From Mobula hypostoma (Eukaryota): a DNA stretch of 64,000 nucleotides. Shown piece after piece: positions 1 through 62,342 of this stretch; the stretch's first letter is position 1; every line of letters begins with the position of its first letter. The position numbers and the translations under genes are program-made. Location: positions 70,992,001-71,056,000 of the forward strand of contig NC_086097.1 in the NCBI RefSeq assembly GCF_963921235.1, read 5' to 3'. Below the pieces are notes generated by a model, which worked only from the letters and a program-made list of their open reading frames with translations, was not told where the DNA came from and ran no database searches.

Positions 1-3000
1 TTTCAGCGTTCCACCGCGTCTCTGTTCCCTCCAACCCAGCATGGATTTCAGCGTTCCACCGCGTCACTGTTCCCTCCAACCCAGCATGAATTTCAGCGTT
101 CCACCGCGTCACTGTTCCCTTCAACCCAGCGCGGATTACAGCGTGTCACCGCGTCTCTGTTCCCTCCAACCCAGCACGTATTACAGCGTGTCACCGCGTC
201 TCTGTTCCCTCCAACCCAGCATGGATTACAGCATGCCACCGCGTCTCTGTTCTCTCCAACCCAGCGCGGATTACAGCGTGCCACCGCGTCTCTGTTCCCT
301 CCAACCCAGCGCGGATTACAGCGTTCCACCGCGTCACTGTTCCCTCCAACCCAGCACGGATTACACCGTGACACCGCGTCTCTGTGCCCTCCAACCCAGC
401 ACGGATTTCACCGTGCCACCACGTATCTGTTCTCTCCAACCCAGCACGGATTTCACCGTGCCACCACGTATCTGTTCTCTCCAACCCAGCACGGATTTCA
501 CCGTGCCACCGCGTCGCTGTTCCCTCCAACCCAGCGCGGATTACAGCGTGCCGCCGCGTCTCTGTTCTGTCCAACCCAGCACGGATTACAGCGTGCCACC
601 GCGTCTCTGTTCCCTCCAACCCAGCGCGGATTACAGCGTGCCACCGCGTCTCTGTTCCCTCCAACCCAGCGCGGATTACAGCGTGCCACCGCATCTCTGT
701 TCCCTCCAACCCAGCACGGATTTCACCGTGTCACTGCGTCTCTGTGCCCTCCAACCCAGCGCGGATTACAGCGTTCCACCGCGTCTCTGTTCTCTCCAAC
801 CCAGCGCAGATTACAGCGTGCCACCGCGTCACTGTTCCCTCCAACCCAGCGCGGATTACAGCGTGCCACCGCGTCTCTGTTCCCTCCAACCCAGCGCGGA
901 TTACAGCGTGCCACCGCGTCTCTGTGCCGTCGAACCCAGCACGGATTTCACCGTGCCACCGCGTCTCTGTTCCCTCCAAACCAGCACGGATTACAGCGTT
1001 CCACCGCGTCACTGTTCTCTCCAACCCAGCACGGATTACACCGTCCCACCACGTCTCTATTCTCTCCAACCCAGCATGGATTACACCGTGCCACCGCGTC
1101 TCCGTTCCCTCCAACCCAGCACGGATTACAGCGTGCCACCGCGTCTCTGTTCCCTCCAACCCAGCACGGATTTCACCGTGTCACTGCGTCTCTGTGCCCT
1201 CCAACCCAGCACAGATTACAGCGTTCCACCACGTCTCTGTGCCCTCCAACCCAGCACGGATTACAGCGTTCCACAGCGTCTCCGTGCCCTTCAACCCAGC
1301 ACGGATTACAGCGTGCCACCGCATCTCTGTTCCCTCCAACCCAGCACGGATTTCACCGTGTCACTGCGTCTCTGTGCCCTCCAACCCAGCACAGATTACA
1401 GCGTTCCACCACGTCTCTGTGCCCTCCAACCCAGCACGGATTACAGCGTTCCACAGCGTCTCTGTGCCCTTCAACCCAGCACGGATTACAGCGTGCCACC
1501 GCATCTCTGTGCCCTCCAACCCAGCACGGATTTCACCGTGTCACTGCGTCTCTGTGCCCTCCAACCCAGCACAGATTACAGCGTTCCACCACGTCTCTGT
1601 GCCCTCCAACCCAGCACGGATTACTCCGTGCCACCGCGTCACTGTTCCCTCCAACCCAGCACGGATTACACCGTGCCACCGCGTCTCTGTTCTCTCCAAC
1701 CCAGCACGGATTACAGCGTTCCACCGCGTCTCTGTTCTCTCCAACCCAGCACGGATTACAGCGTTCCACTGCGTCACTGTTCCCTCCAACCCAGCACGGA
1801 TTACAACGTGCCACCGCGTCTCTGTGCCCTCCAACCCAGCACGGATTACAGCTTGCCACCGCGTCTCTGTGCCCTCCAACCCAGCACGGATTACAGCGTG
1901 TCACTGCGTCTCTGTTCTCTCCAAACCAGCACGGATTACACCGTGCCACCGCGTCTCTGTTCCCTCCAACCCAGCACGGATTACAGCGTGCCACCGCGTC
2001 ACTGTGCCCTCCAACCCAGCATGGATTACACCGTGACACCACGTCTCTGTGCCCTCCAACACAGCATGGATTACAGCGTTCCACCGCGTCACTGTTCTCT
2101 CCAACCCAGCACGGATTACAACGTGCCACCGCGTCTCTGTTCTCTCCAACGCAGCACGGATTACACCGTGTCACCGCGTCTCTGTTCTCTCCAACCCAGC
2201 GCGGATTACAGCGTGCCACCGCGTCTCTGTGCCCTCCAACACAGCACGGATTACAGCGTGCCACCGCTTCTCTGTTCCCTCCAACCCAGTGCGGATTACA
2301 GCGTTCCACCGCGTCACTGTTCTCTCCAACCCAGCACGGATTACACCGTGCCACTGCGTCTCTGTTCCCTCCAAACCAGCACGGATTTCAGCGTGCCACC
2401 GCGTCTCTGTTCCCTCCAACCCAGTGCGGATTACAGCGTTCCACCGCGTCACTGTTCTCTCCAACCCAGCACGGATTACACCGTGCCACTGCGTCTCTGT
2501 TCCCTCCAACCCAGCATGGATTTCAGCGTTCCACCGCGTCACTGTTCCCTCCAACCCAGCGCGGATTACAGCGTGTCACCGTGTCTCTGTTCCCTCCAAC
2601 CCAGCACGTATTACAGCGTGTCACCGCGTCTCTGTTCCCACCAACCCAGCATGGATTACAGCGTTCCACCGTGTCTCTGTTCCCTCCAACCCAGCACGGA
2701 TTACAGCGTTCCACCGCGTTACTGTTCTCTCCAACCCAGCGCGGATTACAGCGTGCCACCGCGTCTCTGTTCCCTCCAACCCAGCACGGATTACAGCGTT
2801 CCACCGCGTCACTGTTCCCTCCAACCCAGCACGGATTACACAGTGCCACCACGTCTCTGTTCCCTCCAACCCAGCACGGATTACACCGTGACACCACGTC
2901 TCTGTGCCCTCCAACCCAGCACGGATTTCACCGTGCCACCACGTCTCTGTGCCCTCCAACCCAGCACGGATTTCACCGTGCCACCGCGTATCTGTTCTCT

Positions 3001-6000
3001 CCAACCCAGCACGGATTTCAGCGTTCCACCGCGTCTCTGTTCCCTCAAACCCAGCACGTTTACAGCGTGCCGCCGTGTCTCTGTTCCCTCCAACCCAGCA
3101 CGGATTACACAGTGCCGCCGCGTCTCTGTTCTCTCCAACCCAGCACGGATTACACCGTGCCGCCGCGTCTCTGTTCTCTCCAACCCAGCGCGGATTACAC
3201 CGTGCCACCGTGACTCTGTTCTCTCTAACCCAGCACGGATTACACAGTGCCGCCGCGTCTCTGTTCTCTCCAACCCAGCACGGATTACACCGTCCCACCG
3301 CGTCTCTGTGCCCTCCAACCCAGCACGGATTACAGCGTTCCGCTGCGTCTCTGTGCCCTCCAACCCAGCACGGATTACAGCGTTCCGCTGCGTCTCTGTG
3401 CCCTCCAACCCAGCACGGATTAAACCGTGCCACCGCGTCTCTGTGCCCTCCAACCCAGCACGGATTACAACGTGCCACCGCGTCTCTGCGCCCTCCAACC
3501 CAGCTCAGATTACACCGTGCCACCGCGTCTCTGTGCCCTCCAACCCAGCACAGATTACAGCGTTCCACCGCGTCTCTGTTCCCTCCAACCCAGCATGGAT
3601 TACACTGTGCCACCGCCTCACTGTTCTCTCCAACCCAGCACGGATTACAGCGTGCCGCCGCGTCTCTGTTCTGTCCATCCCAGCACGGATTACACCGTGG
3701 CACCGCGTCTGTGTTCTCTCCAACCCAGCACGGATTACTGCGTGCCACCGCGTGTCTGTTCCCTCCAACCCAGCACGGATTACAGCGTGCCACCGCATCT
3801 CTGTGCCGTCCAACCCAGCACGGATTACACCGTGTCACCGCGTCTCCGTTGCCTCCAACCCAGCACGGATTGCAGTGTGCCACCGCGTCTCTGTTCTCTC
3901 CAATCCAGCACGGATTACACCGTGTCACCGCGTCTCCGTTGCCTCCAACCCAGCACGGATTACAGCGTTCCACCTCGTCTCTGTTCTCTCCAAACCAGCA
4001 CGGATTACAGCGTGCCACCGCGTCACTCTCCCTCCAAACCAGCACGGATTACACCGTGCCACCGCGTCTCTGTTCCCTCCAACCCAGCGCGGATTACACC
4101 GTGCCACCACGTCCCTCTGCCCTCCAACCCAGCACGGATTACAGCGTGCCACCGCGTCACTCTCCCTCCAACCCAGCACGGATTACACCGTGCCGCCGCG
4201 TCTCTGTTCTCTCCAACCCAGTATGGATTACACCGTGCCACCGCGTCTCTGTTCTCTCCAACCCAGCACGGATTACACCGTCCCGCCGCGTCTCTGTTCT
4301 CTCCAACCCAGCACGGATTACAGCGTGCCACGCGTCACTATTCCCTCCAAACCAGCACGGATTACACCGTGCCACCGCGTCACTGTGCCCTCCAACACAG
4401 CACGGATTACAGTGTTCCACCGCGTCTCTGTGCCCTCCAACCCAGCACGGATTACAGCGTTCCACTGCGTCTCTGTGCCCTCCAACCCAGCACGGATTAC
4501 AGCGTGCCACCGCGTCTCTGTGCCCTCCAACCCAGCACGGATTACACCGTGCCACCGCGTCTCTGTGCCCTCCAACCCAGCACGGATTACAGCGTGCCAC
4601 CGCGTCTCTGTGCCCTCCAACCCAGCACGGATTCCACCGTGCCACCGCGTCTCTGTGCCCTCCAACCCAGCACGGATTACAACGTGCCACCGCGTCTCTA
4701 TGCCCTCCAACCCAGCACAGATTTCACCGTGCCACCGCGTCTCTGTGCCCTCCAACCCAGCACAGATTACAGCGTTCCACCGCGTCTCTGTGCCCTCCAA
4801 CCCAGCACGGATTACAGCGTGCCACCGCGTCTCTGTGCCCTCCAACCCAGCACGGATTACAGCGTGCCGCCGCGTCTCTGTTCTCTCCAACCCAGCGCAG
4901 ATTACACCGTTCCACCGCGTCACTGTTCCCTCTAACCCAGCGCGGATTACACCGTCCCACCGCGACTCTGTTCTCTCCAACCCAGCACGGATTACAGCGT
5001 GCCACCGCGTCTCTGTGCCCTCCAACCCAGCACGGATGACACCGTCCCGCCGCGTCTCCGGTCTCTCCAACCCAGCACGGATTAAACCGTGCCACCGCGT
5101 CACTGTGCCCTCCAACCCAGCACGGATTACACTGTTCCACCGCGTCTCTGTGCCCTCCAACCCAGCACGGATTACAGTGTTCCACCGCGTCTCGGTGCCC
5201 TCCAAACCAGCACGGATTACAGCGTGCCACCGCGTCTCTGTTCCCTCCAACCCAGTGCGGATTACAGCGTTCCACCGCGTCACTGTTCTCTCCAACCCAG
5301 CACGGATTACACCGTGCCACTGCGTCTCTGTTCCCTCCAAACCAGCACGGATTTCAGCGTTCCACCGCGTCTCTGTTCCCTCCAACCCAGCATGGATTTC
5401 AGCGTTCCACCGCGTCACTGTTCCCTTCAACCCACTGCGGATTACAGCGTGTCACCGTGTCTCTGTTCCCTCCAACCCAGCACGCATTACAGCGTGTCAC
5501 CGCGTCTCTGTTCCCTCCAACCCAGCATCGATTACAGCGTTCCACCGCGTCTCTGTTCTCTCCAACCCAGCGCGGATTACAGCGTGCCACCGCGTCTCTG
5601 TTCCCTCCAACCCAGCACGGATTACAGCGTTCCACCGCGTCACTGTTCCCTCCAACCCAGCACGGATTACACAGTGCCACCACGTCTCTGTTCCCTCCAA
5701 CCCAGCACGGATTACACCGTGACACCACGTCTCTGTGCCCTCAAACCCAGCACGGATTTCACCGTGCCACCGCGTATCTGTTCTCTCCAACCCTGCGCGG
5801 ATTACACCGTGCCACCGCGTCACTGTTCTCTCCAAACCAGCACGGATTACAGCGTTCCACCGCGTCTCTGTTCCCTCAAACCCAGCATGGATTACACCGT
5901 GCCACCGCGTATCTGTTCCCTCCAACCCAGCACGGATTACACCGTTCCACCGCGTCTCTGTTTTCTCCAACCCAGCGCGGATTACACCGTGCCACCGCGT

Positions 6001-9000
6001 CACTGTTCTCTCCAACCCAGCGCGGATTACACCGTGCCGCCGCGTCTCTGTTCTCTCCAACCCAGCGCGGATTACACCGTGCCACCGTGACTCTGTTCTC
6101 TCCAACCCAGCACGGATTACACAGTGCCGCCGCGTCTCTGTTCTCTCCAACCCAGCACGGATTACACCGTCCCGCCGCGTCTCTGTTCTCTCCAACCCAG
6201 CACGGATTACAGCGTGCCACCGCGTCACTGTGCCCTCCAACCCAGCACGGATTACAGTGTTCCACCTCGTCTCTGTGCCCTCCAACCCAGCACGGATTAC
6301 AGCATTCCGCTGCGTCTCTGTGCCCTCCAACCCAGCACGGATTACAACGTGCCACCGCGTCTCTGTGCCCTCCAACCCAGCACAGATTACAGCGTTCCAC
6401 TGCGTCTCTGTGCCCTCCAACGCAGCGCGGATTACACTGTGCCACCGCCTCACTGTTCTCTCCAACCCAGCACGGATTACAGCGTGCCGCCGCGTCTCTG
6501 TTCTGTCCATCCCAGCACGGATTACACCGTGGCACCGCGTCTCTGTTCTCTCCAACCCAGCACGGATTACAGCGTGCCACCGCGTCTCTGTTCCCTCCAA
6601 CCCAGCACGGATTACAGCGTGCCACCGCATCTCTGTGCCGTCCAACCCAGCACGGCTTACACCGTGTCACCGCGTCTCCGTTGCCTCCAACCCAGCACGG
6701 ATTACAGCGTGCCACCGTGTCTCTGTTCCCTCCAATCCACCACGGATTACACCGTGTCACTGCGTCTCCGTTGTCTCCAACCCAGCACGGATTACAGCGT
6801 GCCGCCGCGTCTCTGTTCTGTCCATCCCAGCACGGATTACACCGTGGCACCGCGTCTCTGTTCTCTCCAACCCAGCACAGATTAAAGCGTGCCACCGTGT
6901 CACTGTTCCCTCCAACCCAACACGGATTACACCGTGCCACCGCGTCTCTGTTCCCTCCAACCCAGCACGGATTACACCGTGCCACCGCGTCTCTGTTCCC
7001 TCTAACCCAGCGTGGATTACAGCGTGCCACCGCATCGCTGTGCCGTCCAACACAGCACGAATTACACCGTTCCACCTCGTCTCTGTTCTCTTCGAACCAG
7101 CGCATATTACACCGTGCCACCGCGTCTCTGTTCCCTCCAATCCAGCACGGATTACAGCGTCCCACTGCGTCTCTGTTCCCTCCAACCCAACGCGGATTAC
7201 AGCGTGCCACCGCTTCTCTCTTCCTTCCAACCCAGCGCGGATTTCAGCGTTCCACCGCGTCACTGTGCCCTCCAACGCAGCACGGATTACACCGTGCCAC
7301 CGCGTCTCTGTTCCCTCCAACCCAGCGCGGATTACACCGTGCCACCACGTCCCTCTGCCCTCCAACCCAGCACGGATTACAGCGTGCCACCGCGTCACTC
7401 TCCCTCCAAACCAGCACGGATTAAACCGTGCCGCCGCGTCTCTGTTGTCTCCAACCCAGCACGGATTACACCGTGCCACCGCGTCTCTGTTCTCTCCAAC
7501 CCAGCACGGATTACACCGTGCCACCGCGTGTCTGTTCTCTCCAACCCAGCACGGATTACACGGTCCCACCGCGTCTCTGTTCTCTCCAACCCAGCACGGA
7601 TTACAGCGTGCCACCACGTCACTGTGCCCTCCAACCCAGCACGGATTACAACGTGCCACCGCGTCTCTGTGCCCTCCAACCCAGCACAGATTTCACCGTG
7701 CCACCGCGTCTCTGTGCCCTCCAACCCAGCACAGATTACAGCGTTCCACCGCGTCTCTGTGTCCTCCAACCGAGCACGGATTACAGCGTGCCACCGCCTC
7801 ACTGTTCTCTCCAACCCAGCACGGATTACAGCGTGCCGCCGCGTCTCTGTTCTGTCCATCCCAGCACGGATTACACCGTGGCACCGCGTCTCTGTTCTCT
7901 CCAACCCAGCACAGATTACAGCGTGCCACCGCGTCACTGTTCCCTCCAACCCAGCACGGATTACACCGTGCCACCGCGTCACTGTTCCCTCCAACCCAGC
8001 ACGGATTACACCGTGCCACCGCATCTCTGTTCCCTCCAATCCAGCACGGATTACAGCGTGCCACCGCGTCTCTGTTCCTTCCAACCCAGCGCGGATTACA
8101 GCGTGCCACCGCGTCTCTATGCCGTCGAACCCAGCATGGATTACAGCGTTCCACCGCGTCTCTGTTCCCTCCAACCCAGCGCGGATTACACCGTGCCACC
8201 GCGTCTCTGTTCCCTCCAACCCAGCGCGGATTACACCGTGCCACCACGTCCCTCTGCCCTCCAACCCAGCACGGATTACAGCGTGCCACCGCGTCACTCT
8301 CCCTCCAACCCAGCACGGATTACACCGTCCCGCCGCGTCTCTGTTCTCTCCAACCCAGCACGGATTACAGCGTGCCACGCGTCACTATTCCCTCCAAACC
8401 AGCACGGATTACAGCGTGCCACCGCGTCTCTGTGCCCTCCAACCCAGCACGGATTACAGCGTGCCGCCGCGTCTCTGTTCTCTCCAACCCAGCGCAGATT
8501 ACACCGTTCCACCGCGTCACTGTTCCCTCTAACCCAGCGCGGATTACACCGTCCCACCGCGACTCTGTTCTCTCCAACCCAGCACGGATTACACCGTGCC
8601 ACCGCGTCTCTGTTCTCTCCAACCCAGCACGGATTACACCGTGCCACCGCGTCTCTGTTCTCTCCAACCCAGCACGGATTACACGGTCCCGCCGCGTCTC
8701 TGTTCTCTCCAACCCAGCACGGATTACACCGTCCCGCCACGTCACTATTCCCTCCAAACCTGCACGGATTACACCGTGCCACCGCGTCACTGTGCCCTCC
8801 AACCCAGCACGGATTACAGTGTTCCACCGCGTCTCTGTGCCCTCCAACCCAGCACGGATTACAGCGTTCCATTGCGTCTCTGTGCCCTCCAACCCAGCAC
8901 GGATTACAACGTGCCACCGCGTCTCTATGCCCTCCAACCCAGCACAGATTTCACCGTGCCACCGCGTCTCTGTGCCCTCCAACCCAGCACGGATTACAGC

Positions 9001-12000
9001 GTGCCACCGCGTCTCTGTGCCCTCCAACCCAGCACGGATTACAGCGTGCCACTGCGTCTCTGTGCCCTCCAACCCAGCACAGATTACAGCGTTCCACCTC
9101 GTCTCTGTGCCCTCCAACCCAGCACGGATTACAGCGTGCCACCGCGTCTCTGTGCCCTCCAACCCAGCACGGATTACAGCGTTCCACCGCGTCTCTGTGC
9201 CCTCCAACCCAGCACAGATTACAGCTTGCCACCGCGTCTCTGTGCCCTCCAACCCAGCACGGATTACAGCGTTCCACCGCGTCTCTGTGCCCTCCAACCC
9301 AGCACGGATTACAGCGTGTCACTGCGTCTCTGTTCCCTCCAACCCAGCACGGATTACACCGTGCCACCGCGTCGCTGTTCTCTCCAACCCAGCACGGATT
9401 ACAGCGTGCCACCGCGTTCCTGTGCCCTCCAACCCAGTGCGGATTACACCGTGCCACCGCCTCACTGTTCTCTCCAACCCAGCATGGATTACAGCGTGCC
9501 GCCGCGTCTCTGTTCTCTCCAACCCAGCGAAGATTACACCGTTCCACCGCGTCACTGTTCCCTCTAACCCAGCGCGGATTACACCGTCCCACCGCGACTC
9601 TGTTCTCTCCAACCCAGCACGGATTACACAGTTACGCCGCGTCTCTGTTCTCTCCAACCCAGCACGGATTACACCGTCCCGCCGCGTCTCTGTTCTCTCC
9701 AACCCAGCACGGATTACACCGTGGCATCGCGTCTCTGTTCTCTCCAACCCAGCACGGATTACAGCGTGCCACCGCGTCTCTGTGCCCTCCAACCCAGCAC
9801 GGATGACACCGTCCCGCCGCGTCTCCGGTCTCTCCAACCCAGCACGGATTACAGCTATCCACCGCGTCTCTGTGCCCTCCAACCCAGCACGGATTACAGC
9901 TTGCCACCGCGTCTCTGTGCCCTCCAACCCAGCATGGATTACAGCGTGCCACCGCGTCTTTGTGCCCTCCAAGCCAGCACGGATGATACCGTCCCGCCGC
10001 GTCTCCGGTCTCTCCAACCCAGCACGGATTACAGCGTTCCACCGCGTCTCTGTGCCCTCCAACCCAGCACGGATTACAGCTTGCCACCGCGTCTCTGTGC
10101 CCTCCAACCCAGCACGGATTACAGCGTTCCACCGCGTCTCTGTGCCCTCCAACCCAGCACGGATTACACCGTGCCACCGCGTCGCTGTTCTCTCCAACCC
10201 AGCACGGATTACAGCGTGCCACCGCGTCTCTGTTCCCTCCAACCCAGTGCGGATTACAGAGTGCCACCGCGTCGCTGTTCTCTCCAACCCAGCCCGGATT
10301 ACAGCATGCCACCGCGTCTCTGTTCTCTCCAACCCAGCACGGATTACAGCATGCCACCGCGTTCCTGTGCCCTCCAACCCAGTGCGGATTACAGCGTTCC
10401 ACCGCGTCACTGTTCCCTCCAACCCAGCACGGATTACACCGTGCCACCGCCTCACTGTTCTCTCCAACCCAGCATGGATTACAGCGTGCCACCGCGTCTC
10501 TGTTCTCTCCAACCCAGCGCAGATTACACCGTTCCACCGCGTCACTGTTCCCTCTAACCCAGCGCGGATTACACCGTCCCACCGCGACTCTGTTCTCTCC
10601 AACCCAGCACGGATTACACAGTGCCGCCGCGTCTTTGTTCTCTCCAACCCAGCACGGATTACAGCGTGCCACCGCGTCACTGTTCCCTCTAACCCAGCGC
10701 GGATTACACCGTCCCACCGCGTCTCTGTTCTCTCCAACCCAGCACAGATTACAGCGTGCCACCGCGTCTCTGTTCTCTCCAACCCAGCATGGATTACACC
10801 GTGCCACTGCGTCTCTGTTCTCTCCAACCCAGCACAGATTACACCGTGCCACCGCGTCTCTGTGCCCTCCAACCCAGCACAGATTACAGCGTGCCACTGC
10901 GTCTCTGTTCCCTCCAACCCAGCACGGATGACACCGTCCCGCCGCGTCTCCGGTCTCTCCAACCCAGCACGGATTAAACCGTGCCACCGCGTCACTGTGC
11001 CCTCCAACCCAGCACGGATTACACTGTTCCACCGCGTCTCTGTGCCCTCCAACCCAGCACGGATTACAGTGTTCCACCGCGTCTCGGTGCCCTCCAAACC
11101 AGCACAGATTACAGCGTTCCACCGCGTCACTGTGCCCTCCAACCCAGCACGGATTACAGCGTTCCACCGCGTCTCTGTGCCCTCCAACCCAGCACAGATT
11201 ACAGCGTGCCACTGCGTCTCTGTTCCCTCCAACCCAGCGCGGATTACAGCGTGCCACCGCGTCTCTGTGCCGTCCAACCCAGCACGGATTACACCGTTCC
11301 ACCTCGTCTCTGTTCTCTCTAAACCAGCATGGATTACACCGTGCCACCGCGTCTCTGTTCCCTCCAACCCAGTGCGGATTACAGCGTTCCACCGCGTCTC
11401 TGTGCCCTCCAACCCAGCACAGATTACAGCGTGCCACTGCGTCTCTGTTCCCTCCAACCCAGCACGGATTACAGCGTGCCACCGCGTCTCTGTGCCGTCC
11501 AACCCAGCACGGATTACACCGTTCCACCTCGTCTCTGTTCTCTCTAAACCAGCATGGATTACACCGTGCCACCGCGTCTCTGTTCCCTCCAATCCAGCAC
11601 GGATTACAGCCTGCCACCGCGTCTCTGTTCCCTCCAATCCAGTACGGATTACAGCGTGCCGCCGCGTCTCTGTTCCCTCCAACCCAGTGCGGATTACAGC
11701 GTTCCACCGTGTATCTGTTCTCTCCAACCCAGCGTGGATTACACCGTGCCACTGCCTCACTGTTCTCTCCAACCCAGCACGGATTACAGCGTTCCACCGC
11801 GTCACTGTGCCCTCCAACCCAACACGGATTACAGCGTGCCACCGCGTCTCTGTTCCCTCCAACCCAGTGCGGATTACAGCGTTCCACCGCGTCACTGTTC
11901 CCTCTAACCCAGCGCGGATTACACCGTGCCACCGTGTCTCTGTTCTCTCCAACCCAGCATGGATTACACCGTCCCACCGCGACTCTGTTCTCTCCATCAC

Positions 12001-30000: not shown

Positions 30001-33000
30001 TACAGTGTTCCACCGCGTCTCGGTGCCCTCCAAACCAGCACAGATTACAGCGTTCCACCGCGTCACTGTGCCCTCCAACCCAGCACGGATTACAGCGTTC
30101 CACCGCGTCTCTGTGCCCTCCAACCCAGCACAGATTTCAGCGTGCCACTGCGTCTCTGTTCCCTCCAACCCAGCGCGGATTACAGCGTGCCACCGCGTCT
30201 CTGTGCCGTCCAACCCAGCACAGATTACACCGTTCCACCTCGTCTCTGTTCTCTCTAAACCAGCATGGATTACACCGTGCCACCGCGTGCCTGTTCCCTC
30301 CAACCCAGCACGGATTACAGCGTGCCGCCGCGTCTCTGTTCCCTCCAACCCAGTGCGGATTACAGCGTTCCACCGCGTCTCTGTGCCCTCCAACCCAGCA
30401 CAGATTACAGCGTGCCACCGCGTCTCTGTGCCGTCCAACCCAGCACGGATTACACCGTTCCACCTCGTCTCTGTTCTCTCTAAACCAGCATGGATTACAC
30501 CGTGCCACCGCGTCTCTGTTCCCTCTAACCCAGCCCGTATTACACTGTGCCGCCGCGTCTCTATTCCCTCCAACCCAGCGTGGATTACAGCGTACCACCG
30601 CGTCTCTGTTCCCTCCAACCCAGCGTGGATTACAGCGTACCACCGCGTCTCTGTTCCCTCCAACCCAGCATGGATTACACCGTGCCACCACGTCTCTGTT
30701 CCCTCCAACCCAGCACGTATTACACAGTGCCACCGCGTCTCTGTTCTCTCCAACCCAGCACGGATTACAGTGTTCCACCGCCTCTCTGTGCCCTCCAACC
30801 CAGCACGGATTACAGCGTTCCACTGCGTCTCTGTGCCCTCCAACCCAGCACGGATTACAACGTGCCACCGCGTCTCTGTGCCCTCCAACCCAGCACAGAT
30901 TTCACCGTGCCATCGCGTCTCCGGTCTCTCCAACCCAGCACGGATTACAACGTGCCACCGCGTCTCTGTGCCCTCCAACCCAGCTCAGATTACAGCGTTC
31001 CACCGCGTCTCTGTGCCCTCCAACCCAGCGCGGATTACACTGTGCCACCGCGTCTCTGTGCCCTCCAACCCAGCACAGATTACAGCGTTCCACCGCGTCT
31101 CTGTGCCCTCCAACCCAGCACGGATTACACTGTGCCACCGCCTCACTGTGCCCTCCAACCCAGCACAGATTTCACCGTGCCACCGCGTCTCTGTGCCCTC
31201 CAACCCAGCACGGATTACAGCGTTCCACCGCGTCTCTGTGCCCTCCAACCCAGCGCGGATTACAGCGTTCCACCGCGTCTCTGTTCTCTCCAACCCAGCA
31301 CGGATTACACCGTGCCACCGCGTCTCTGTTCCCTCCAACCCAGCGCGGATTACAGCGTGCCACCGCGTCTCTATGCCGTCGAACCCAGCACGGATTACAG
31401 CGTTCCACAGCGTCTCTGTTCCCTCCAACCCAGCGCGGATTACACCATGCCACCGCGTCTCTGTTCCCTCCAACCCAGCACGGATTACAGCGTGCCACCG
31501 CGTCACTCTCCCTCCAAACCAGCACAGATTTCACCGTGCCACCGCGTCTCTGTGCCCTCCAACCCAGCGCGGATTACAGCGTTCCACCGCGTCTCTGTTC
31601 TCTCCAACCCAGCACGGATTACAGCGTGCCACCGCGTCTCTGTGCCCTCCAACCCAGCGCGGATTACAGCGTTCCACCGCGTCTCTGTTCTCTCCAACCC
31701 AGCACGGATTACACCGTGCCACCGCGTCTCTGTTCCTTCCAACCCAGCACGGATTACAGCGTGCCACCGCGTCTCTATGCCGTCGAACCCAGCACGGATT
31801 ACAGCGTTCCACAGCGTCTCTGTTCCCTCCAACCCAACGCGGATTACACCGTGCCACCGCGTCTCTGTTCCCTCCAACCCAGCACGGATTACAGCGTGCC
31901 ACCGCGTCACTCTCCCTCCAAACCAGCACGGATTACACCGTGCCACCGCGTCTCTGTTCCCTCCAACCCAGCATGGATTACACCGTCCCACCGCGACTCT
32001 GTTCTATCCAACCCAGCACGGATTACACAGTGCCGCCGCGTCTCTGTTCTCTCCAACCCAGCACGGATTACACCGTCCCGCCGCGTCTCTGTTCTCTCCA
32101 ACCCAGCACGGATTACAGCGTGCTACGCGTCACTATTCCCTCCAAACCAGCACGGATTACAGCGTTCCACCGCGTCTCTGTGCCCTCCAACCCAGCACGG
32201 ATTACAGCGTTCCACCGCGTCTCTGTGCCCTCCAACCCAGCACAGATTACAGCGTTCCACCGCGTCTCTGTTCCCTCCAACCCAGCACGGATTACAGCGT
32301 GCCACCGCGTCTCTGTGCCCTCCAACCCAGCACAGATTACAGCTTGCCACCGCGTCTCTCTTCCCTCCAACCCAGCACGGATTACACCGTGCCACCGCGT
32401 CTCTGTTCCGTCCAACCCAGCACGGATTACACCGTGCCACCGCGTCTCTGTTCTCTCCAACCCAGCACAGATTACAGCGTTCCACCGCGTCTCTGTTCCC
32501 TCCAACCCAGCACAGATTACAGCGTTCCACCGCGTCTCTGTTCTCTCCAACCCAGCACAGATTACAGCGTTCCACCGCGTCACTGTGCCCTCCAACCCAG
32601 CACGGATTACACCGTGTCACCGCCTCACTGTTCTCTCCAACCTAGCACGGATTACAGCGTGCCGCTGCGTCTCTGTTCCCTCCAACCCAGCGCAGATTAC
32701 ACCGTTCCACCGCGTCACTGTTCCCTCTAACCCAGCGCGGATTACACCGTGCCACCGCCTCACTGTTCTCTCCAACCCAGCACGGATTACAGCGTTCCAC
32801 CGCGTCACTGTGCCCTCCAACCCAACACGGATTACAGCGTGCCACCGCGTCTCTGTTCGCTCCAACCCAGTGCGGATTACAGCGTTCCACCGCGTCACTG
32901 TTCCCTCCAACCCAGTGCGGATTACAGCGTTCCACCGCGTCACTGTTCCCTCCAACCCAGCAAGGATTACACCGTGCCACCGCGTCTCTGTTTTCTCCAA

Positions 33001-36000
33001 CCCAGCGCAGATTACACCGTTCCACCGCGTCACTGTTCCCTCTAACCCAGCGCGGATTACACCGTGCCACCGTGTCTCTGTTCTCTCCAACCCAGCACGG
33101 ATTACACCGTGCCGCCGCGTCACTGTTCCCTCCAACCCAGCACGGATTACACCGTGCCACCGTGTCTCTGTTCCCTCCAACCCAGCACGGATTAAACCGT
33201 GTCACCGCGTCTCTGTTCTCTCCAACCCAGCACAGATTACAGCGTTCCACCGCGTCTCTGTGCCCTCCAACCCAGCACGGATTACAGCGTTCCACCGCGT
33301 CTCTGTTCCCTCCAACCCAGCACGGATTAAACCGTGCCACCGCGTCTCTGTGCCCTCCAACCCAGCACAGATTACAGCGTTCCACCGCGTCTCTGTGTTC
33401 TCCAACCCAGCACGGATTACACCGTGCCACCGCGTCTCTGTGCCCTCCAACCCAGCACAGATTACAGCGTGTCACCTCGTCTCTGTTCTCTCCAACCCAG
33501 CACAGATTACAGCGTTCCACCGCGTCACTGTGCCCTCCAACCCAGCACGGATTACCCCGTGTCACCGCCTTACTGTTCTCTCCAACCCAGCACGGATTTC
33601 AGCGTTCCACCGCGTCACTGTTCCCTCCACCCAGCGCGGATTACAGCGTTCCACCGCGTCTCTGTTTTCTCCAACCCAGCACGGATTACACAGTGCCGCC
33701 GCGTCTCTGTTCTCTCCAACCCAGCGCGTATTACACCGTGCCACCGCGTCACTGTTCCCTCCAACCCAGCATGGATTACAGCGTGCCACCGCGTCTCCGT
33801 TCCCTCCAACCCAGCGTGGATTACAGCGTGCCACCGCGTGTCTGTTCCCTCCAACCCAGCACGGATTACACCGTGCCACCACGTCTCTGTTCCCTCCAAC
33901 CCAGCACGTATTACACAGTGCCACCGCGTCTCTGCTCTCTCCAACCCAGCACGGATTACAGCGTGCCACCACGTCTCACAGCGTGCCACCACGTCTCTGT
34001 GCCCTCCAACCCAGCACGGACTACAGCGTGCCAACGCGTCTCTGTTCCCTCCAACCCAGCGCGGATTTCAGCGTGCCACCGCGTCTCTGTTCTGTCCAAC
34101 CCAGCACGGATTTCAGTGTGCCACCGCGTCTCCGTTCCCTCCAACCCAGCACGGATTACAGCGTGCCACCGCGTCTCCGTTCCCTCCAACCCAGCACGGA
34201 TTACACCGTGTCACCGCGTCTCTGTTCCCTCCAACCTAGCGCGGATTACAGCGTGTCGCCGCGTCTCTGTTCTCTCCAACCCAGCACGGATTACACTGTG
34301 CCACCGCGTCACTGTGCCCTCAAACCTAGCGCGGATTACACCGTCCCACCGCGTCTCTGTTCCCTGCAACCCAGCACAGATTACAGCGTGCCACCGCGTC
34401 ACTGTTCTTTCCAATTTAGCGCGGATTACAGCGTTGCACTGCGTCTCTGTGCCCTCCAACCCAGCACGGATTTCACCGTGCCACCGCGTCTCTGTGCCCT
34501 CCAACCCAGCACAGATTACAGCGTTCCACCGTGTCTCTGTGCCCTCCAACACAGCACGGATTACAGCGTTGCACTGCGTCTCTGTGCCCTCCAACCCAGC
34601 ACGGATTACAGCGTGCCACCGCGTCTCTGTGCCCTCCAACCCAGCATGGATTTCACCGTGCCACCGCGTCTCTGTGCCCTCCAACCCAGCACAGATTACA
34701 GCATTCCACCGTGTCTCTGTGCCCTCCAACCCAGCACAGATTACAGCGTGCCACCGCGTCTCTGTGCCCTCCAACCCAGCACAGATTACAGCGTGCCACC
34801 GCGTCTCTGTGCCCTCCAACCCAGCACGGATTACACAGTGCCACCGCGTCTCTGTTCCCTCCAACCCAGCACGGATTACAGCGTGCCACCGCGTCTCTGT
34901 TCCCACCAACCCAGCACGGATTGCACCGTGCCACCGCCTCACTGTTCTCTCCAACCCAGCATGGATTTCAGCCTGCCACTGTGTCTCTGTTCCCTGCAAC
35001 TCAGTGCGGATTACACCGTGCCACTGCGTCACTGTGCCCTCCAACCTAGCGCGGATTACAGCGTGCCACCGCGTCTCTGTTCCCTCCAACCCAGCACGGA
35101 TTACAGCGTGTCGCCGCGTCTCTGTGCCTTCCAACCCAGCACGGATTACACCGTGCCACCGCGTCTCTGTTCTCTCCAAGCCAGCGCGGATTACAGCGTG
35201 CCACCGCGTCTCTGTTCCCTCCAACCCAGCACGGATTACAGCATTCCACCGCGTCACTGTTCCCTCCAACCCAGCGCGGATTACACCGTGCCGCCGCGTC
35301 TCTGTTCCCTCCATACCAGCGCGGATTTACAGCGTGCCACCGCGTCACTGTTCCCTCCAACCCAGCACGGATTACACCATGCCACCGCGTCTCTGTGCCC
35401 TACAACCCAGCATGGATTACAGCGTTCCACCGCGTCTCTGTGCCCTCCAACCCAGCACGGATTACAGCGTTCCACCGCGTCACTGTTCTCTCCAACCCAG
35501 CACGGATTACACCGTGTCACCGCGTCTCTGTTCTCTCCAACCCAGCACGGATTACAGCATGCCACCGCGTCTCTGTTCTCTCCAACCCAGCGCGGATTAC
35601 AGCGTGCCACCGCGTCTCTGTTCCCTCCAACCCAGCGCGGATTACACTGTGCCACTGCGTCTCTCTTCCCTCCAACCCAGCGCGGATTACAGCGTGCCAC
35701 CGCGTCTCTGTTCCCTCCAACCCAGCACGGATTACACCGTCCCACCGCGTCTCTGTTCCCTCCAACCCAGCGCGGATTACAGCGTGCCACCGCGTCTCTG
35801 TTCCCTCCAACCCAGCGCGGATTACAGCGTGTCACCGCGTCTCTGTTCCCTCCAACCCAGCGCGGATTACAGCGTGCCACCGCGTCTCTGTTCCCTCCAA
35901 CCCAGCACGGATTACAGCGTGCCAGCGCGTCTCTGTTCCCTCCAACCCAGCACAGATTACACCGTGCCACCGCGTCTCTGTTCCCTCCAACCCAGCGCGG

Positions 36001-39000
36001 ATTACAGCGTTCCACCGCGTCTCTGTTCCCTCCAACCCAGCGCGGATTACACCATGCCACCGCGTCTCTGTTCCCACCAACCCAGCACGGATTACACCGT
36101 GGCACCGTGTCACTCTCCCTCCAAACCAGCACGGATTACACCGTGCCAACACGTCACAGTGCCCTCCAACACAGCACGGATTACAGCGTTCCACCGCGTC
36201 TCTGTGCCCTCCAACCCAGCACGGATTACAGCGTTCCACCGCGTCTCTGTGCCCTCCAACCCAGCACGGATTACACCGTGCCACCGCGTCTCTGTTCTCT
36301 CCAACCCAGCATGGATTACAGCGTTCCACGGCGTCTCTGTTCCCTCCAACCCAGCACAGATTACAGCGTTCCACCGCGTCACTGTTCTCTCCAACCCAGC
36401 ACGGATTACAGCGTGCCACCGCGTCTCTGTTCCGTCCAACCCAGCACGGATTACACCGTGCCACCGCGTCACTGTGCCCTCCAACCCAGCACGGATTACA
36501 GCGTTCCACCGCGTCTCTGTGCCCTCCAACCCAGCACGGATTACACCGTGCCACCGCGTCTCTGTTCTCTCCAACCCAGCACGGATTACAGCGTTCCACG
36601 GCGTCTCTGTTCCCTCCAACCCAGCACAGATTACAGCGTTCCACCGCGTCACTGTTCTCTCCAACCCAGCACGGATTACAGCGTGCCACCGCGTCTCTGT
36701 TCCGTCCAACCCAGCACGGATTACACCGTGCCACCGCGTCTCTGTTCCGTCCAACCCAGCGCGGATTACACCGTGCCACCGCGTCTCTGTGCCCTCCAAC
36801 CCAGCACGGATTTCACCGTGCCACCACGTCTCTGTGCCCTCCAACCCAGCACGGATTTCACCGTGCCACCACGTCTCTGTGCCCTCCAACCCAGCACGGA
36901 TTACACCGTGCCACCGCGTCTCTGTTCTCTCCAACCCAGCACGGATTACACCGTGCCACCGCGTCTCTGTTCTCTCCAACCCAGCACGGATTACACCGTG
37001 CCGCCGCGTCTGTTCTCTCCAACCCAGCACGGATTACACCGTGCCACCGCGTCACTGTGCCCTCCAACCCAGCACGGATTACAGCGTGCCACCGCGTCTC
37101 TGTTCTCTCCAACCCAGCACCGATTACACCGTGCCACCGCGTCTCTGTTCTCTCCAACCCAGCGCGGATTACAGCGTGCCACGGCGTCTCTGTTCTCTCC
37201 AACCCAGCGCGGATTACAGCGTGCCACCACGTCTCTGTGCCCTCCAACCCAGCACGGATTACAGCGTGCCACCGCGGCACTGTTCCCTCCAACCCAGCGC
37301 GGATTACACCGTGCCACCGCGTCTCTGTGCCCTCCAACCCAGCACGGATTTCACCGTGCCACTGCGTCTCTGTGCCCTCCAACCCAGCACGGATTACAGC
37401 GTTCCACCGCGTCTCTGTGCCCTCCAACCCAGCACGGATTACAGCGTTCCACCGCGTCTCTGTGCCCTCCAAACCAGCATGGATTACAGCGTGCCACCGC
37501 GTCTCTGTTCTCTCCAACCCAGCACGGATTACACCGTTCCACCGCGTCTCTGTTTTCTCCAACCCAGCGCGGATTACACCGTGCCACCGCGTCTCTGTTC
37601 TCTCCAACCCAGCACGGATTACAGCGTTCCACGGCGTCTCTGTTCCCTCCAACCCAGCACAGATTACAGCGTTCCACCGCGTCACTGTTCTCTCCAACCC
37701 AGCACGGATTACAGCGTGCCACCGCGTCTCTGTTCCGTCCAACCCAGCACGGATTACACCGTGCCACCGCGTCTCTGTTCCGTCCAACCCAGCGCGGATT
37801 ACACCGTGCCACCGCGTCTCTGTGCCCTCCAACCCAGCACGGATTTCACCGTGCCACCACGTCTCTGTGCCCTCCAACCCAGCACGGATTTCACCGTGCC
37901 ACCACGTCTCTGTGCCCTCCAACCCAGCACGGATTACACCGTGCCACCGCGTCTCTGTTCTCTCCAACCCAGCACGGATTACACCGTGCCACCGCGTCTC
38001 TGTTCTCTCCAACCCAGCACGGATTACACCGTGCCGCCGCGTCTCTGTTCTCTCCAACCCAGCACGGATTACACCGTGCCACCGCGTCACTGTGCCCTCC
38101 AACCCAGCACGGATTACAGCGTGCCACCGCGTCTCTGTTCTCTCCAACCCAGCACCGATTATACCGTGCCACCGCGTCTCTGTTCTCTCCAACCCAGCGC
38201 GGATTACAGCGTGCCACGGCGTCTCTGTTCTCTCCAACCCAGCGCGGATTACAGCGTGCCACCACGTCTCTGTGCCCTCCAACCCAGCACGGATTACAGC
38301 GTGCCACCGCGGCACTGTTCCCTCCAACCCAGCGCGGATTACACCGTGCCACCGCGTCTCTGTGCCCTCCAACCCAGCACGGATTTCACCGTGCCACTGC
38401 GTCTCTGTGCCCTCCAACCCAGCACGGATTACAGCGTTCCACCGCGTCTCTGTGCCCTCCAACCCAGCACGGATTACAGCTTTCCACCGCGTCTCTGTGC
38501 CCTCCAAACCAGCATGGATTACAGCGTGCCACCGCGTCTCTGTTCTCTCCAACCCAGCACTAATTACACCGTTCCACCGCGTCTCTGTTTTCTCCAACCC
38601 AGCGCGGATTACACCGTGCCACCGCGTCACTGTTCTCTCCAAACCAGCGCGGATTACACCGTGCCGCCGCGTCTCTGTTCCCTCCAACCCAGCACGGATT
38701 ACACCGTGACACCACGTCTCTGTTCTCTCCAACCCAGCGCGGATTACACCGTGTCACCGCGTCTCCGTTCCCTCCAACCCAGCACGGATTACAGCGTGCC
38801 ACCGCGTCACTGTTCTCTCCAACCCAGCGCGGATTACACCGTGCCGCTGCATCTCTGTTCCGTCCAACCCAGCACGGATTACACCGTGCCACCGCGTCAC
38901 TGTGCCCTCCAACCCAGCACGGATTACAGCGTTCCACTGCGTCTCTGTGCCCTCCAACCCAGCACGGATTACACCGTGCCACCGCGTCTCTGTTCTCTCC

Positions 39001-40665
39001 AACCCAGCACGGATTACAGCGTTCCACGGCTTCTCTGTTCCCTCCAACCCAGCACAGATTACAGCGTTCCACCGCGTCACTGTTCTCTCCAACCCAGCAC
39101 GGATTACAGCGTGCCACCGCGTCTCTGTTCCGTCCAACCCAGCACGGATTACACCGTGCCACCGCGTCTCTGTTCCGTCCAACCCAGCGCGGATTACACC
39201 GTGCCACCGCGTCTCTGTGCCCTCCAACCCAGCACGGATTTCACCGTACCACCACGTCTCTGTGCCCTCCAACCCAGCACGGATTTCACCGTGCCACCAC
39301 GTCTCTGTGCCCTCCAACCCAGCACGGATTACACCGTGCCACCGCGTCTCTGTTCTCTCCAACCCAGCACGGATTACACCGTGCCACCGCGTCTCTGTTC
39401 TCTCCAACCCAGCACGGATTACACCGTGCCGCCGCGTCTCTGTTCTCTCCAACCCAGCACGGATTACACCGTGCCACCGCGTCACTGTGCCCTCCAACCC
39501 AGCACGGATTACAGCGTGCCACCGCGTCTCTGTTCTCTCCAACCCAGCACCGATTATACCGTGCCACCGCGTCTCTGTTCTCTCCAACCCAGCGCGGATT
39601 ACAGCGTGCCACGGCGTCTCTGTTCTCTCCAACCCAGCGCGGATTACAGCGTGCCACCACGTCTCTGTGCCCTCCAACCCAGCACGGATTACAGCGTGCC
39701 ACCGCGGCACTGTTCCCTCCAACCCAGCGCGGATTGCACCGTGCCACCGCGTCTCTGTGCCCTCCAACCCAGCACGGATTTCACCGTGCCACTGCGTCTC
39801 TGTGCCCTCCAACCCAGCACGGATTACAGCGTTCCACCGCGTCTCTGTGCCCTCCAACCCAGCACGGATTACAGCGTTCCACCGCGTCTCTGTGCCCTCC
39901 AAACCAGCATGGATTACAGCGTGCCACCGCGTCTCTGTTCTCTCCAACCCAGCACGGATTACACCGTTCCACCGCGTCTCTGTTTTCTCCAACCCAGCGC
40001 GGATTACACCGTGCCACCGCGTCACTGTTCTCTCCAAACCAGCGCGGATTACACCGTGCCGCCGCGTCTCTGTTCCCTCCAACCCAGCACGGATTACACC
40101 GTGACACCACGTCTCTGTTCTCTCCAACCCAGCGCGGATTACACCGTGTCACCGCGTCTCCGTTCCCTCCAACCCAGCACGGATTACAGCGTGCCACCGC
40201 GTCACTGTTCTCTCCAACCCAGCGCGGATTACACCGTGCCGCCGCATCTCTGTTCCGTCCAACCCAGCACGGATTATACCGTGCCACTGCGTCACTGTGC
40301 CCTCCAACGCAGCATGGATTACACCGTGTCACCGCGTCTCTGTTCTCTCCAACCCAGCATGGATTACAGCGTGCCGCCGCGTCTCTGTTCTCTCCAACCC
40401 AGCACGGATTACACCGTGCCACTGCGTCTCTGTGCCGTCGAACCCAGCACGGATTACACCGTGCCGCCGCGTCTCTGTGCCCTCCAACCCAGCACGGATT
40501 ACAGCGTGTCACCGCGTCTCTGTTCCCTCCAACCCAGCACGGATTACAGCGTGTCACCGCGTCTCTGTTCCCTCCAACCCAGCACGGATTACAGCGTGTC
40601 ACCGCGTCTCTGTTCCCTCCAACCCAGCACGGATTTCAGTGTGCCACCGCGTCTCTGTTCTCTCC
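1..40665. repeat. 45-bp tandem satellite array, ~900 monomers, truncated by the left window edge
   Basis: Consensus CCAACCCAGCACGGATTACAGCGTGCCACCGCGTCTCTGTTCCCT repeats head-to-tail with point variants and rare small indels; it ends abruptly at ...GTCTCTGTTCTCTCC (~40665). The consensus is 62% GC with 4 CpG per unit. Confidence 0.99.
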
Positions 40666-41011
40666 CATACCTCCTCCGGGTGGCTGTAGCAGGCGATGCC
40701 ACAGCATGAGGGCTTGGTCCATACGACAACTGAGGCCGCACAGCTGCCCCTCCGTCTCACCTGTGAACCGGACTCGCAGTATTTTATATTTCTGATCTTC
40801 AACAGGGTTTATTTATTTATTTTTTTTCTTCTCATTCTGTATTTGCACAATTTTTTTGTCATTTGCACGATGGTTGTTTAACTGTTTTCGTTTCTGTGTA
40901 GTTTTCCATTGATTCTGTTGGGTTTCTTTGTATTTATTGTGAATGCCCACAAGAAAATGAATCTCACGGTGACATATATGTACTTGGATAATAAATTTAT
41001 GTTGAGCTTTA
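40666..41011 (+). repeat. Putative 3' portion of an interspersed non-LTR/SINE-like repeat abutting the satellite
   Basis: GC-rich stretch, then T-rich sequence, then ...GAAAATGAATCTCACGGTGACATATATGTACTTGGATAATAAATTTATGTTGAGCTTT, a tail pattern I recall from elasmobranch interspersed repeats. Family not verified. Confidence 0.45.
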
Positions 41012-41083
41012 AACAATTGGAAATTATTATAGATGCCGGAAACCATATATAAAATATTTAAATCAGGCTTCACCTGTGGATAG

Positions 41084-41962
41084 TGTTACGTACCCCGTAA
41101 CTGGGTTGCCAAACCAGCAGAAATGGATCACTCAGTTGGAGTCTGGAGTACTAGAACTAAGAAAGTTTTATTAAAGAAACAAGCAACACAGTAATCGAAA
41201 GGATAATAAATGCAACAGTTCAGTGATGATAAACACACAGGTGCACAGCATTAAGATAACAGCATCAATCAAGCTCTATCGTTGTCTAGGGGTAAATGAC
41301 CAATTTCAAAATGACTCAAAGTTCAGTCCAGTTAGTAGTTCAGTTCGCAGTAATCGTTGCCATGGCGGTGGACAACGTGGGGGAAGAGAGAGATAGAATA
41401 GGAACAACTCATCATTCAGAACGGCTTCACTCACAGACCAGCAAGATGGCTCACAGACCAGCGAGATGGCTCACAAACAGCTTTTGGGCGGGTCCTTGGT
41501 GATGTCACCTGAGGTCACCGACTGTGACCCCTCCTCCAGATGCGGTCGATCCTCTGCAGTGAACCCGGCACCCAGGCAAGGGCGGACACACACCGGGTTC
41601 CCGCTGATCGTACCTTTCCACCCTGGTCGTTGTCTGGTACTTCTCACCCACTCGTGAGAAGCGTACCGCTTCCAGGGTCTCGTTACCTCGGGTGGCGTGT
41701 GTGTCTGTCTTAGCGAACCTGTCCCTTTTTATCCCCCTGCTGGGGTATCGCCTGTCCATCACTTCAAACAGTTCAGGGTTCAAAGGGGGGAGCCGCTCCA
41801 GACAGCTCTTCCTCCCACATCCCTTCATTACACATCTCCAGACGCTGCTCCATTGTTCCTTATCTCTCCTTCCCCTGAGGGCAGGTGGCAGACCAACTGC
41901 TGATGCCACTGATGCTAGCCCAGGCCAGCAAACATCTTAATTTTATGTGTATTCTCGTAACA
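41084..41962 (-). mobile_element. Solo LTR (879 bp), probably Gypsy/Ty3 or ERV type
   Basis: Termini TGTTACG...CGTAACA form a 7-bp inverted repeat (TG..CA) flanked by a perfect 4-bp TSD ATAG (41080-41083, 41963-41966). Minus strand shows a TATA-like GATAAAAA (~41726-41733) and AATAAA (41167-41172). Internal 20-bp tandem repeat at 41431-41479. Confidence 0.88.
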
Positions 41963-42121
41963 ATAGAGAAACAGTTAATGTTGAATCATTGTTTGTCCTT
42001 GCACAGGTTTTGCGTAGCATGCTGAATACTTCCTTCATTTTTTCATTAAGTTATTATGAATACTACAGAAACAGTAAAATTATTTCATGACAGTAAACTC
42101 AGTTTTATTTTCTTTTGACAG

Positions 42122-42174
42122 GAGATGTGTCTATCAGTATCTCAGTGTCAAATAGTGAGATCCAGGAAAATGTG
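42122..42174 (+). CDS. PRKD1: Protein kinase D1, internal exon (53 nt), linker before the kinase domain
   Basis: Acceptor tttgacAG, donor GTaagt; encodes (R)DVSISISVSNSEIQENV, matching PKD1 RDISVSISVSNCQIQENV. Starts in phase 1, so upstream exons are outside the window. Confidence 0.93.
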
Positions 42175-43171: not shown

Positions 43172-43336
<165 letters not shown>

Positions 43337-45752: not shown

Positions 45753-45893
<141 letters not shown>

Positions 45894-46735: not shown

Positions 46736-46972
<237 letters not shown>

Positions 46973-49275: not shown

Positions 49276-49581
<306 letters not shown>

Positions 49582-58304: not shown

Positions 58305-58389
58305 GTACCTCTTCCTAAAGATGCTGCTTGGCCTGCTGCGTTCACCAGCAACTCTTATGTGTGATTCTTACAGAAATATCTGCATGATG

Positions 58390-62332: not shown

Positions 62333-62342
62333 TATGCCTGTA

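What the first reader, a model, noticed from the sequence alone, without database searches (positions are those of the whole stretch)
1..42174. A >40-kb satellite array apparently inside an intron of an intact PRKD1 gene
Seen: the array ends 1.46 kb upstream of a phase-1 internal PRKD1 exon, and all eight downstream exons are in frame with canonical GT-AG sites. Known: PRKD1 has upstream C1 and PH domain exons, which must lie left of the window. Inferred: the array is intronic and is transcribed in every PRKD1 pre-mRNA, which is unusual for a satellite this large in a conserved signalling gene.
Basis: partly seen in the sequence, partly recalled or inferred. Interest (0 to 1): 0.75.

Follow-up and report, generated by a model that had tools for sequence, protein, structure and literature searches.

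The report
Giant 45-bp repeat inside ray PRKD1
A block of more than 900 copies of a 45-base repeat (over 40 kb) ends just upstream of an internal exon of an intact protein kinase D1 gene in a devil or manta ray; it is most likely a harmless, recently growing intronic repeat that is spliced out, of a kind and size already known from a human calcium-channel gene.

Summary
It ends 1,456 bp before exon 42122. Eight exons with AG/GT ends give 354 aa identical to residues 535-888 of RefSeq PRKD1 from two Mobula species, whose models are full length on single 254/256-Mb sequences. An intronic position is therefore likely, but the left end, the upstream exon and spliced reads were not seen. The array grew by block duplications of 0.5-1.6 kb that are 98.4-100% identical, has no fixed higher-order period, shows a CpG-decay signature and no coding signal. 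Its sense strand carries almost no splice-site look-alikes. Best reading: a likely neutral intronic minisatellite, possibly seeded in a retroposon remnant. The closest precedent is the human CACNA1C intron-3 repeat (30-bp unit, alleles to 61 kb, kilobase duplications). Earlier scan notes report other 13-115-kb arrays in this genome. New member of a known kind. It becomes interesting only if the block proves much larger (centromere-like) or changes PRKD1 output.

The parts
4..40665 (.). Tandem array of a 45-bp unit, about 904 copies, open at the left edge; last unit partial (40637-40665). 41% C, 19% G on the + strand; CpG observed/expected 1.08.
25017..32172 (.). Youngest block duplications: 25080-26688 recurs 5,484 bp later with 1 mismatch in 1,609 bp; related copies at offsets 2,787 and 2,697.
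40666..41016 (+). Right flank: about 110 bp GC-rich, CpG-bearing DNA, then an AT-rich tail with AATAAA. Read as the 3' remnant of a retroposon by recalled resemblance only; candidate seed element, not identified.
   Evidence: sequence, GC steps; no relative found
41084..41962 (.). 879-bp solo-LTR-like insertion with TG...CA ends, a 7-bp terminal inverted repeat and a 4-bp target-site duplication (ATAG).
42122..42174 (+). First PRKD1 exon in the window, phase-1 entry, residues 535 onward (between PH and kinase domains).
43250..43322 (+). PRKD1 exon (start of kinase domain)
45775..45881 (+). PRKD1 kinase exon
46793..46954 (+). PRKD1 kinase exon
49046..49144 (+). PRKD1 kinase exon (catalytic loop)
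49276..49543 (+). PRKD1 kinase exon (activation loop)
56749..56834 (+). PRKD1 kinase exon
63695..63913 (+). Last coding exon of PRKD1 with stop codon

Best explanation
This is a real array of over 900 45-bp units lying 1.46 kb upstream of an internal exon of an intact Mobula PRKD1 reading frame; it is likely a neutral intronic minisatellite that grew in place by repeated multi-unit block duplication and is likely transcribed and spliced out with its intron. Shown: the array, its block structure, the exons and their identity. Inferred: (1) the previous (PH-domain) exon lies left of the array on the same chromosome, so the intron is at least 42 kb against 0.1-7.2 kb for the seven introns downstream; (2) growth is by unequal exchange or conversion of 0.5-1.6-kb blocks rather than single-unit slippage; (3) it is tolerated because the sense strand offers almost no splice-site decoys and no AATAAA, is C-rich (poor R-loop former, general knowledge), and would add only about 10-40 min of transcription; (4) it is methylated in the germ line, but amplification outpaces CpG decay; (5) the seed was probably part of the retroposon-like remnant at 40666-41016 (least certain step).
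For: Gene: 354/354 identity to 7 of 7 Mobula isoforms, all of which join residue 534 to 535; full domain set in P0006/P0007 on 254- and 256-Mb sequences; 111 of 119 fetched proteins of 400 aa or more align without a gap across this junction. The window lies at least 66 Mb inside its piece (offsets printed). Growth mode: identical units at lag 1 are 0.9%, at lags 60, 76 and 122 4.5-4.9%, random 0.5% (19 lags, chosen); 41% of the array lies in exact repeats of 300 bp or more; seven large block pairs differ by 1-10 bases per 0.6-1.6 kb. Real rather than read error: 879 of 903 units are 45 bp, and 18 of the 21 44-bp units belong to just two recurring deletion variants (13 + 5); the longest exact repeat is 1,187 bp, well under long-read length; no N. 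CpG transitions: median 20.5 at 8 CpG positions against 6 at 20 other C/G positions, p = 0.0009, units not independent. Sense strand: 0 GTRAG (shuffles 24.7 +/- 5.5), 0 acceptor-like sites (17.8), 1 donor-like 5-mer against 835 on the minus strand, 0 AATAAA. No coding signal. Precedent: PMC11118589.
Against: The left boundary and upstream exon were not seen, no reads were laid across the junction, and no spliced read into 42122 was examined, so the intronic position rests on gene models of assemblies not shown to be this one. Fifteen ATTAAA variants lie on the sense strand (shuffles 0.4) with no donor-like sites nearby, which could allow premature 3' ends. The lack of splice decoys is one unit in one orientation, effectively a single observation, so it does not show selection. 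The seed element was not identified. Neutrality is a default, and the human analogue is not neutral (10.1101/2025.09.15.676436, abstract).
Confidence: 0.72

Rival explanations
1. The array is not inside the working gene: the array-to-flank join is a misassembly, or a rearrangement or partial duplication placed the 3' half of PRKD1 next to a satellite block.
For: Neither the left end nor upstream exons are in the window; no genome was held; satellite edges are known weak points of assemblies (general knowledge). The best DNA holders (share 0.94-0.95) are one sample, may be the source, and do not test the join.
Against: No N gap; units keep normal divergence up to the last one (1-6 mismatches in the last 20) and run straight into GC-rich flank; the longest exact internal repeat is 1,187 bp; all eight exons are intact and identical to full-length single-chromosome models.
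Confidence: 0.12
2. The array is intronic and works as a regulatory element, like the human CACNA1C repeat: a length- or sequence-variable enhancer, or a timing or premature-termination element for PRKD1.
For: GC-rich, CpG-dense block (o/e 1.08 against 0.28 downstream); 15 ATTAAA variants; the human analogue alters calcium responses (10.1101/2025.09.15.676436, abstract); in human the PRKD1 domain holds forebrain enhancers that contact FOXG1 (PMC13396769, passages).
Against: No conservation or expression data support it; CpG transitions suggest methylation; no RNA structure (z 0.59) or Rfam family; earlier notes describe other large arrays in this genome without a function (unchecked).
Confidence: 0.1
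3. The 40 kb are the edge of a much larger (hundreds of kb to Mb) centromeric or pericentromeric satellite through which PRKD1 is transcribed.
For: Open left end; GC-rich tandem DNA marks the putative red stingray centromere (10.1101/2025.06.08.657570, passages); M. hypostoma chromosome 1 is a fusion of two skate chromosomes (10.64898/2026.10.27.761883, passages), so centromere position may be new.
Against: No fixed higher-order period; the right flank is ordinary gene DNA with short introns; divergence and unique units rise again towards 1-8 kb (singletons 0.33-0.56), which may mean an older margin is near; no look-alike in the scan's indexed notes (weak).
Confidence: 0.05
4. The array is a giant coding exon or a gene of its own, since the unit is 15 codons and stop-free in all three + frames.
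For: Stop-free stretches up to 6,695 codons.
Against: Synonymous share of variants 0.19-0.34 against 0.23-0.29 expected in 6 of 6 frames; 24 of 903 units break the frame; no acceptor-like site and one donor-like site on the sense strand; no protein relative; 7 of 7 Mobula isoforms join 534 to 535 directly.
Confidence: 0.01

Closest known systems
Human CACNA1C intron-3 VNTR (TRACT); PMC11118589 (passages), 10.1101/2025.09.15.676436 (abstract and outline), 10.1101/311795 (search listing)
   Same: Short unit (30 bp there, 45 bp here), many unit variants (158 there, 374 here), nearly all units of one length, kilobase tandem duplications, arrays of tens of kb (13-61 kb in Type 5) in an intron of a conserved signalling gene.
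   Different: Here the unit is unrelated, the array is at least 40.7 kb, and it sits 1.5 kb from the next exon in the middle of the gene. Polymorphism and function are shown for TRACT and untested here.
Drosophila Y-loop genes kl-3, kl-5 (intron gigantism); PMC6508621 (passages), PMC11207136 (abstract)
   Same: Satellite DNA within introns of a protein-coding gene, transcribed with it.
   Different: Those introns are megabases of simple satellite on the Y, testis-specific, with dedicated RNA-binding factors. Here only 42 kb or more is known, on the largest chromosome if the RefSeq location applies, in a broadly used kinase.
SINE-derived satellites (sSat) of squamates; PMC10702118 (passages)
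   Same: Arrays of about 1,000 homogeneous units at single loci; a terminal unit that runs on into non-repeated DNA.
   Different: No parent element was identified here and only one flank is visible.
PRKD1 of Mobula (XP_072123243.1, XP_062906628.1)
   Same: 354/354 identical residues and the same exon entry point.
   Different: None in the part seen; the gene is already annotated.

Membership tests
PRKD1 orthologue | Kinase domain and C-terminal tail closest to PRKD1 | tested here: met
   Last exon 100% identical to proteins named kinase D1 in Mobula; 354/354; Pkinase hits in 3 of 4 exons scanned.
PRKD1 orthologue | Upstream ubiquitin-like, C1 and PH exons in the same gene | tested here: inconclusive
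   Present in RefSeq models; absent from the window; own genome not held.
Minisatellite / VNTR-type tandem array | Head-to-tail units of 10-100 bp, highly similar | tested here: met
   Period 45, 903.6 copies; mean 7.8% from majority, 12.3% pairwise.
Minisatellite / VNTR-type tandem array | Copy number varies among individuals | not testable with these tools
   No second haplotype or long reads over the array.
Intronic repeat | Lies between two consecutive exons of one transcript and is spliced out | tested here: inconclusive
   Downstream exon is internal and phase 1, with an intact acceptor; upstream exon and spliced reads not seen.
Intron gigantism (Y-loop type) | Intron of hundreds of kb to Mb made of satellite | tested here: inconclusive
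   Only a lower bound of 42.1 kb.
Intron gigantism (Y-loop type) | Germline-restricted slow expression with dedicated RNA-binding factors | not testable with these tools
   No expression data were examined.
TE-derived satellite (sSat type) | Unit matches an internal segment of a dispersed element whose halves flank the array | tested here: inconclusive
   Right flank looks like a retroposon end (recalled), but no second copy was found and the left flank is outside the window.
Centromeric satellite | Regular higher-order repeat period | tested here: not met
   Block offsets vary from 12 to over 400 units; no lag above 4.9% identical units among 19 tested. Not every centromeric satellite has one.
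Centromeric satellite | CENP-A binding, methylation dip, Hi-C signature | not testable with these tools
   No chromatin data.
Coding VNTR | Frame kept, synonymous bias, splice sites at both ends | tested here: not met
Ribozyme- or structured-RNA-derived satellite | Unit matches an Rfam family or folds better than shuffles | tested here: not met
   Rfam: one chance hit (E 0.55) outside the array, none; fold z 0.59; no tRNA.

The most novel reading that the evidence does not exclude
The 40 kb are only the edge of a satellite block of hundreds of kb to megabases, possibly the centromere region of the fused mobulid chromosome 1, and PRKD1, a broadly expressed autosomal kinase, is transcribed and spliced straight across it: a vertebrate, somatic counterpart of the Drosophila Y-loop genes. 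A milder version (about 10%) is that array length tunes PRKD1 output.
Probability: 0.05. Interest if true: 0.85.

Novelty: new member of a known kind. Interest (0 to 1): 0.3.

Why it matters
If intronic, it is a clean example of a vertebrate gene tolerating at least a 40-kb, CpG-dense tandem block 1.5 kb from an exon, with visible growth history. It offers a natural test of whether such arrays are neutral (compare rays with and without it) and a likely hypervariable marker for threatened mobulids. It does not break a rule: arrays of this size occur in a human intron. It would matter much more if the block proved centromere-sized or changed PRKD1 or FOXG1 expression. I found no description of this array in searches; the Mobula genome preprint's main text has 0 occurrences of PRKD1, and its supplements could not be seen.

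Tried and rejected
Own genome: none held, so upstream exons and other copies of the unit could not be sought. Sequencing runs: 24 listed, 8 with half the words or more (two organisms, one sample each); no RNA holder listed as such (four guessed RNA at shares 0.15-0.21); none was laid, so these rows are no evidence on the join, splicing or species range. Unit motif in metagenome, viral and prokaryote contigs: 0 matches; flank-tail motif: 0; these collections are not expected to hold ray DNA. Translations of the join and of the array: no homologue. One phmmer hit, P0124 (E 7e-13), was rejected as the sum of 17 weak matches to an unrelated Cys-rich repeat protein (23-31% identity, best pairwise E 3e-4). 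A recalled likeness of the minus-strand unit to the 5' end of 7SL RNA got no Rfam support (0 matches at E up to 10). RNA folding: no signal. Flank 40666-41090 has no significant copy elsewhere in the searched parts of the window. The 15 extra residues of a Hypanus isoform are a C-terminal extension, unrelated to the 45-bp unit. Earlier scan notes: nothing near, by sequence, in relatives or by words; met no PRKD1 or FOXG1 note. PDB holds no PRKD kinase exon match; best was CHK2. PMC7767330 gave one passage on an intronic primate minisatellite, of little use.
Full report
Observation. The first 40.7 kb of the window are one tandem array: TRF reports 4-40665, period 45, 903.6 copies, 88% matches, and composition is flat at about 60% GC with strong C excess until it drops at 40-41 kb. 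The array starts at the window edge, so its size is a lower bound. The window has no N.

The gene. Eight exons between 42122 and 63913 have AG at 8 of 8 acceptors and GT at 7 of 7 donors and give 354 codons plus a stop, entered in phase 1. The last exon finds proteins named serine/threonine-protein kinase D1, with 100% identity in Mobula birostris and M. hypostoma. The 354 residues are identical to residues 535-888 of the longest isoforms and to all 7 of 7 Mobula isoforms listed; Hypanus differs at 2 (14 of 120 listed proteins compared). These models carry the ubiquitin-like, C1 and PH domains, lie on 254- and 256-Mb sequences and join residue 534 directly to 535; 111 of 119 fetched proteins of 400 aa or more align without a gap there. 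Residues 1-534 have no match in 1-42121 (best E 1.9). So the rest of the gene must lie elsewhere, most simply left of the array, which makes this intron at least 42.1 kb against 131-7,205 bp for the seven downstream introns. Offsets printed with earlier notes place the window at least 66 Mb inside its piece, with FANCM about 31.8 Mb to the left (notes unchecked); that fits the human order, in which the 5' end of PRKD1 faces FANCM (recalled). What is missing: no genome was held, no reads were laid, and I did not establish that the window belongs to either annotated assembly. The intronic position is likely, not shown.

Anatomy of the array. Of 903 units, 879 are 45 bp, 21 are 44 bp and 3 have other lengths; the 879 fall into 374 types, 7.8% from the majority unit and 12.3% from each other. 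Neighbouring units are rarely identical (0.9% at lag 1; random 0.5%), but units 60, 76 or 122 apart are identical in 4.5-4.9% (19 lags picked). Blocks of 0.5-1.6 kb recur at varying offsets with 1-10 mismatches, and exact repeats of 300 bp or more cover 41% of the array, mostly between 12 and 32 kb. This is growth by multi-unit duplication without a fixed higher-order period; unequal exchange or conversion is the inferred cause. Two deletion variants account for 18 of the 21 44-bp units and travel with the duplicated blocks, which argues for inherited variants, not read errors. The longest exact repeat is 1,187 bp, so long reads can resolve the array. Transitions are more frequent at CpG positions (median 20.5 against 6; p = 0.0009, units not independent), suggesting germ-line methylation, while CpG observed/expected is still 1.08.

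Not coding, not a structured RNA. The unit is 15 codons and stop-free in all three + frames, which explains open stretches of up to 6,695 codons. Variants show no synonymous bias in 6 of 6 frames, 24 units break the frame, and translations find no relatives; the single phmmer hit was spurious. Folding is no better than shuffles (z 0.59) and Rfam gives nothing on the units.

Why the gene can live with it. On the PRKD1 sense strand the array has 0 GTRAG, 0 acceptor-like sites, 1 donor-like 5-mer and 0 AATAAA, while the opposite strand has 835 donor-like 5-mers. This is one unit in one orientation, so it explains tolerance but does not show selection. The transcript would be C-rich (41% C, 19% G), a poor R-loop former by general knowledge, and 42 kb would cost 10-42 min at assumed rates of 4-1 kb/min (rates recalled). 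Against full harmlessness: 15 ATTAAA variants lie on the sense strand (shuffles 0.4), though the 22 kb of ordinary gene downstream have 19 AATAAA and 18 ATTAAA.

Origin. The last unit runs into about 110 bp of GC-rich DNA and then an AT-rich tail that resembles, from recall only, the 3' end of a common batoid retroposon; an 879-bp solo-LTR-like insertion with a 4-bp target duplication follows. Earlier notes on this genome describe 13.5-, 74- and 115-kb arrays grown inside single retroelement copies (unchecked AI notes, used as a lead only). I could not test this here: no second copy of the flank was found and the left flank is out of view.

Comparison. The human CACNA1C intron-3 repeat has a 30-bp unit, 158 unit types, kilobase tandem duplications and alleles of 13-61 kb (PMC11118589, passages); it affects neuronal calcium responses (10.1101/2025.09.15.676436, abstract). 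That is the same kind of object in the same kind of gene. Drosophila Y-loop genes hold megabases of intronic satellite (PMC6508621, passages; PMC11207136, abstract) and are far larger than what is shown here. Squamate SINE-derived arrays reach about 950-1,200 units (PMC10702118, passages). In rays, introns and intergenic DNA gather repeats alike, and tandem-rich regions are common in the red stingray (10.1101/2025.06.08.657570, passages). The Mobula genome preprint (10.64898/2026.10.27.761883; passages and section 17) does not mention PRKD1 in its main text; its supplements could not be seen. Searches (listings only, unless read as stated) showed no account of this array.

Verdict. Observation confirmed; interpretation partly supported. 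Best reading (0.72): a likely neutral, actively duplicating intronic minisatellite. Rivals: misjoin or rearrangement (0.12), regulatory element (0.10), edge of a centromere-scale block (0.05), coding (0.01). New member of a known kind; interest 0.3. The one cheap step that could raise it sharply is reading the array's left end and total length in the assembly.

Noticed in passing
window 41084-41962: 879-bp solo-LTR-like element with TG...CA ends, 7-bp terminal inverted repeat and 4-bp target duplication, 159 bp upstream of the exon; without it the array would end about 570 bp from the acceptor.
   Followed up: partly
window 4-40665, minus strand: Each unit carries a donor-like 5-mer on the minus strand (835) but almost none on the PRKD1 sense strand (1). 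Orientation bias across all intronic arrays of this genome would be a real test of selection.
   Followed up: partly
window 4-40665, minus strand: The unit has a faint, recalled likeness to the 5' end of vertebrate 7SL RNA; Rfam gave no match. Probably chance.
   Followed up: partly
window 33914-33978: A single 65-bp unit (a 20-bp partial duplication) at the border of a less duplicated zone (about 32-36 kb).
   Followed up: no
window 50480-51860, 53360-54350, 56950-58360: Decayed retroelement pieces in the later introns: two look Penelope-like and one like a CR1-type reverse transcriptase fragment on the minus strand (open stretches of 178, 321 and 297 codons; family names recalled).
   Followed up: no
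P0123 (Hypanus sabinus PRKD1 isoform X1): Replaces the usual C-terminal VSIL end with a 19-residue alternative tail; would remove the PDZ-binding motif (recalled).
   Followed up: no
window 62060-62640: Two adjacent SINE-like copies (recalled likeness to shark tRNA-derived SINEs) seen.
   Followed up: no
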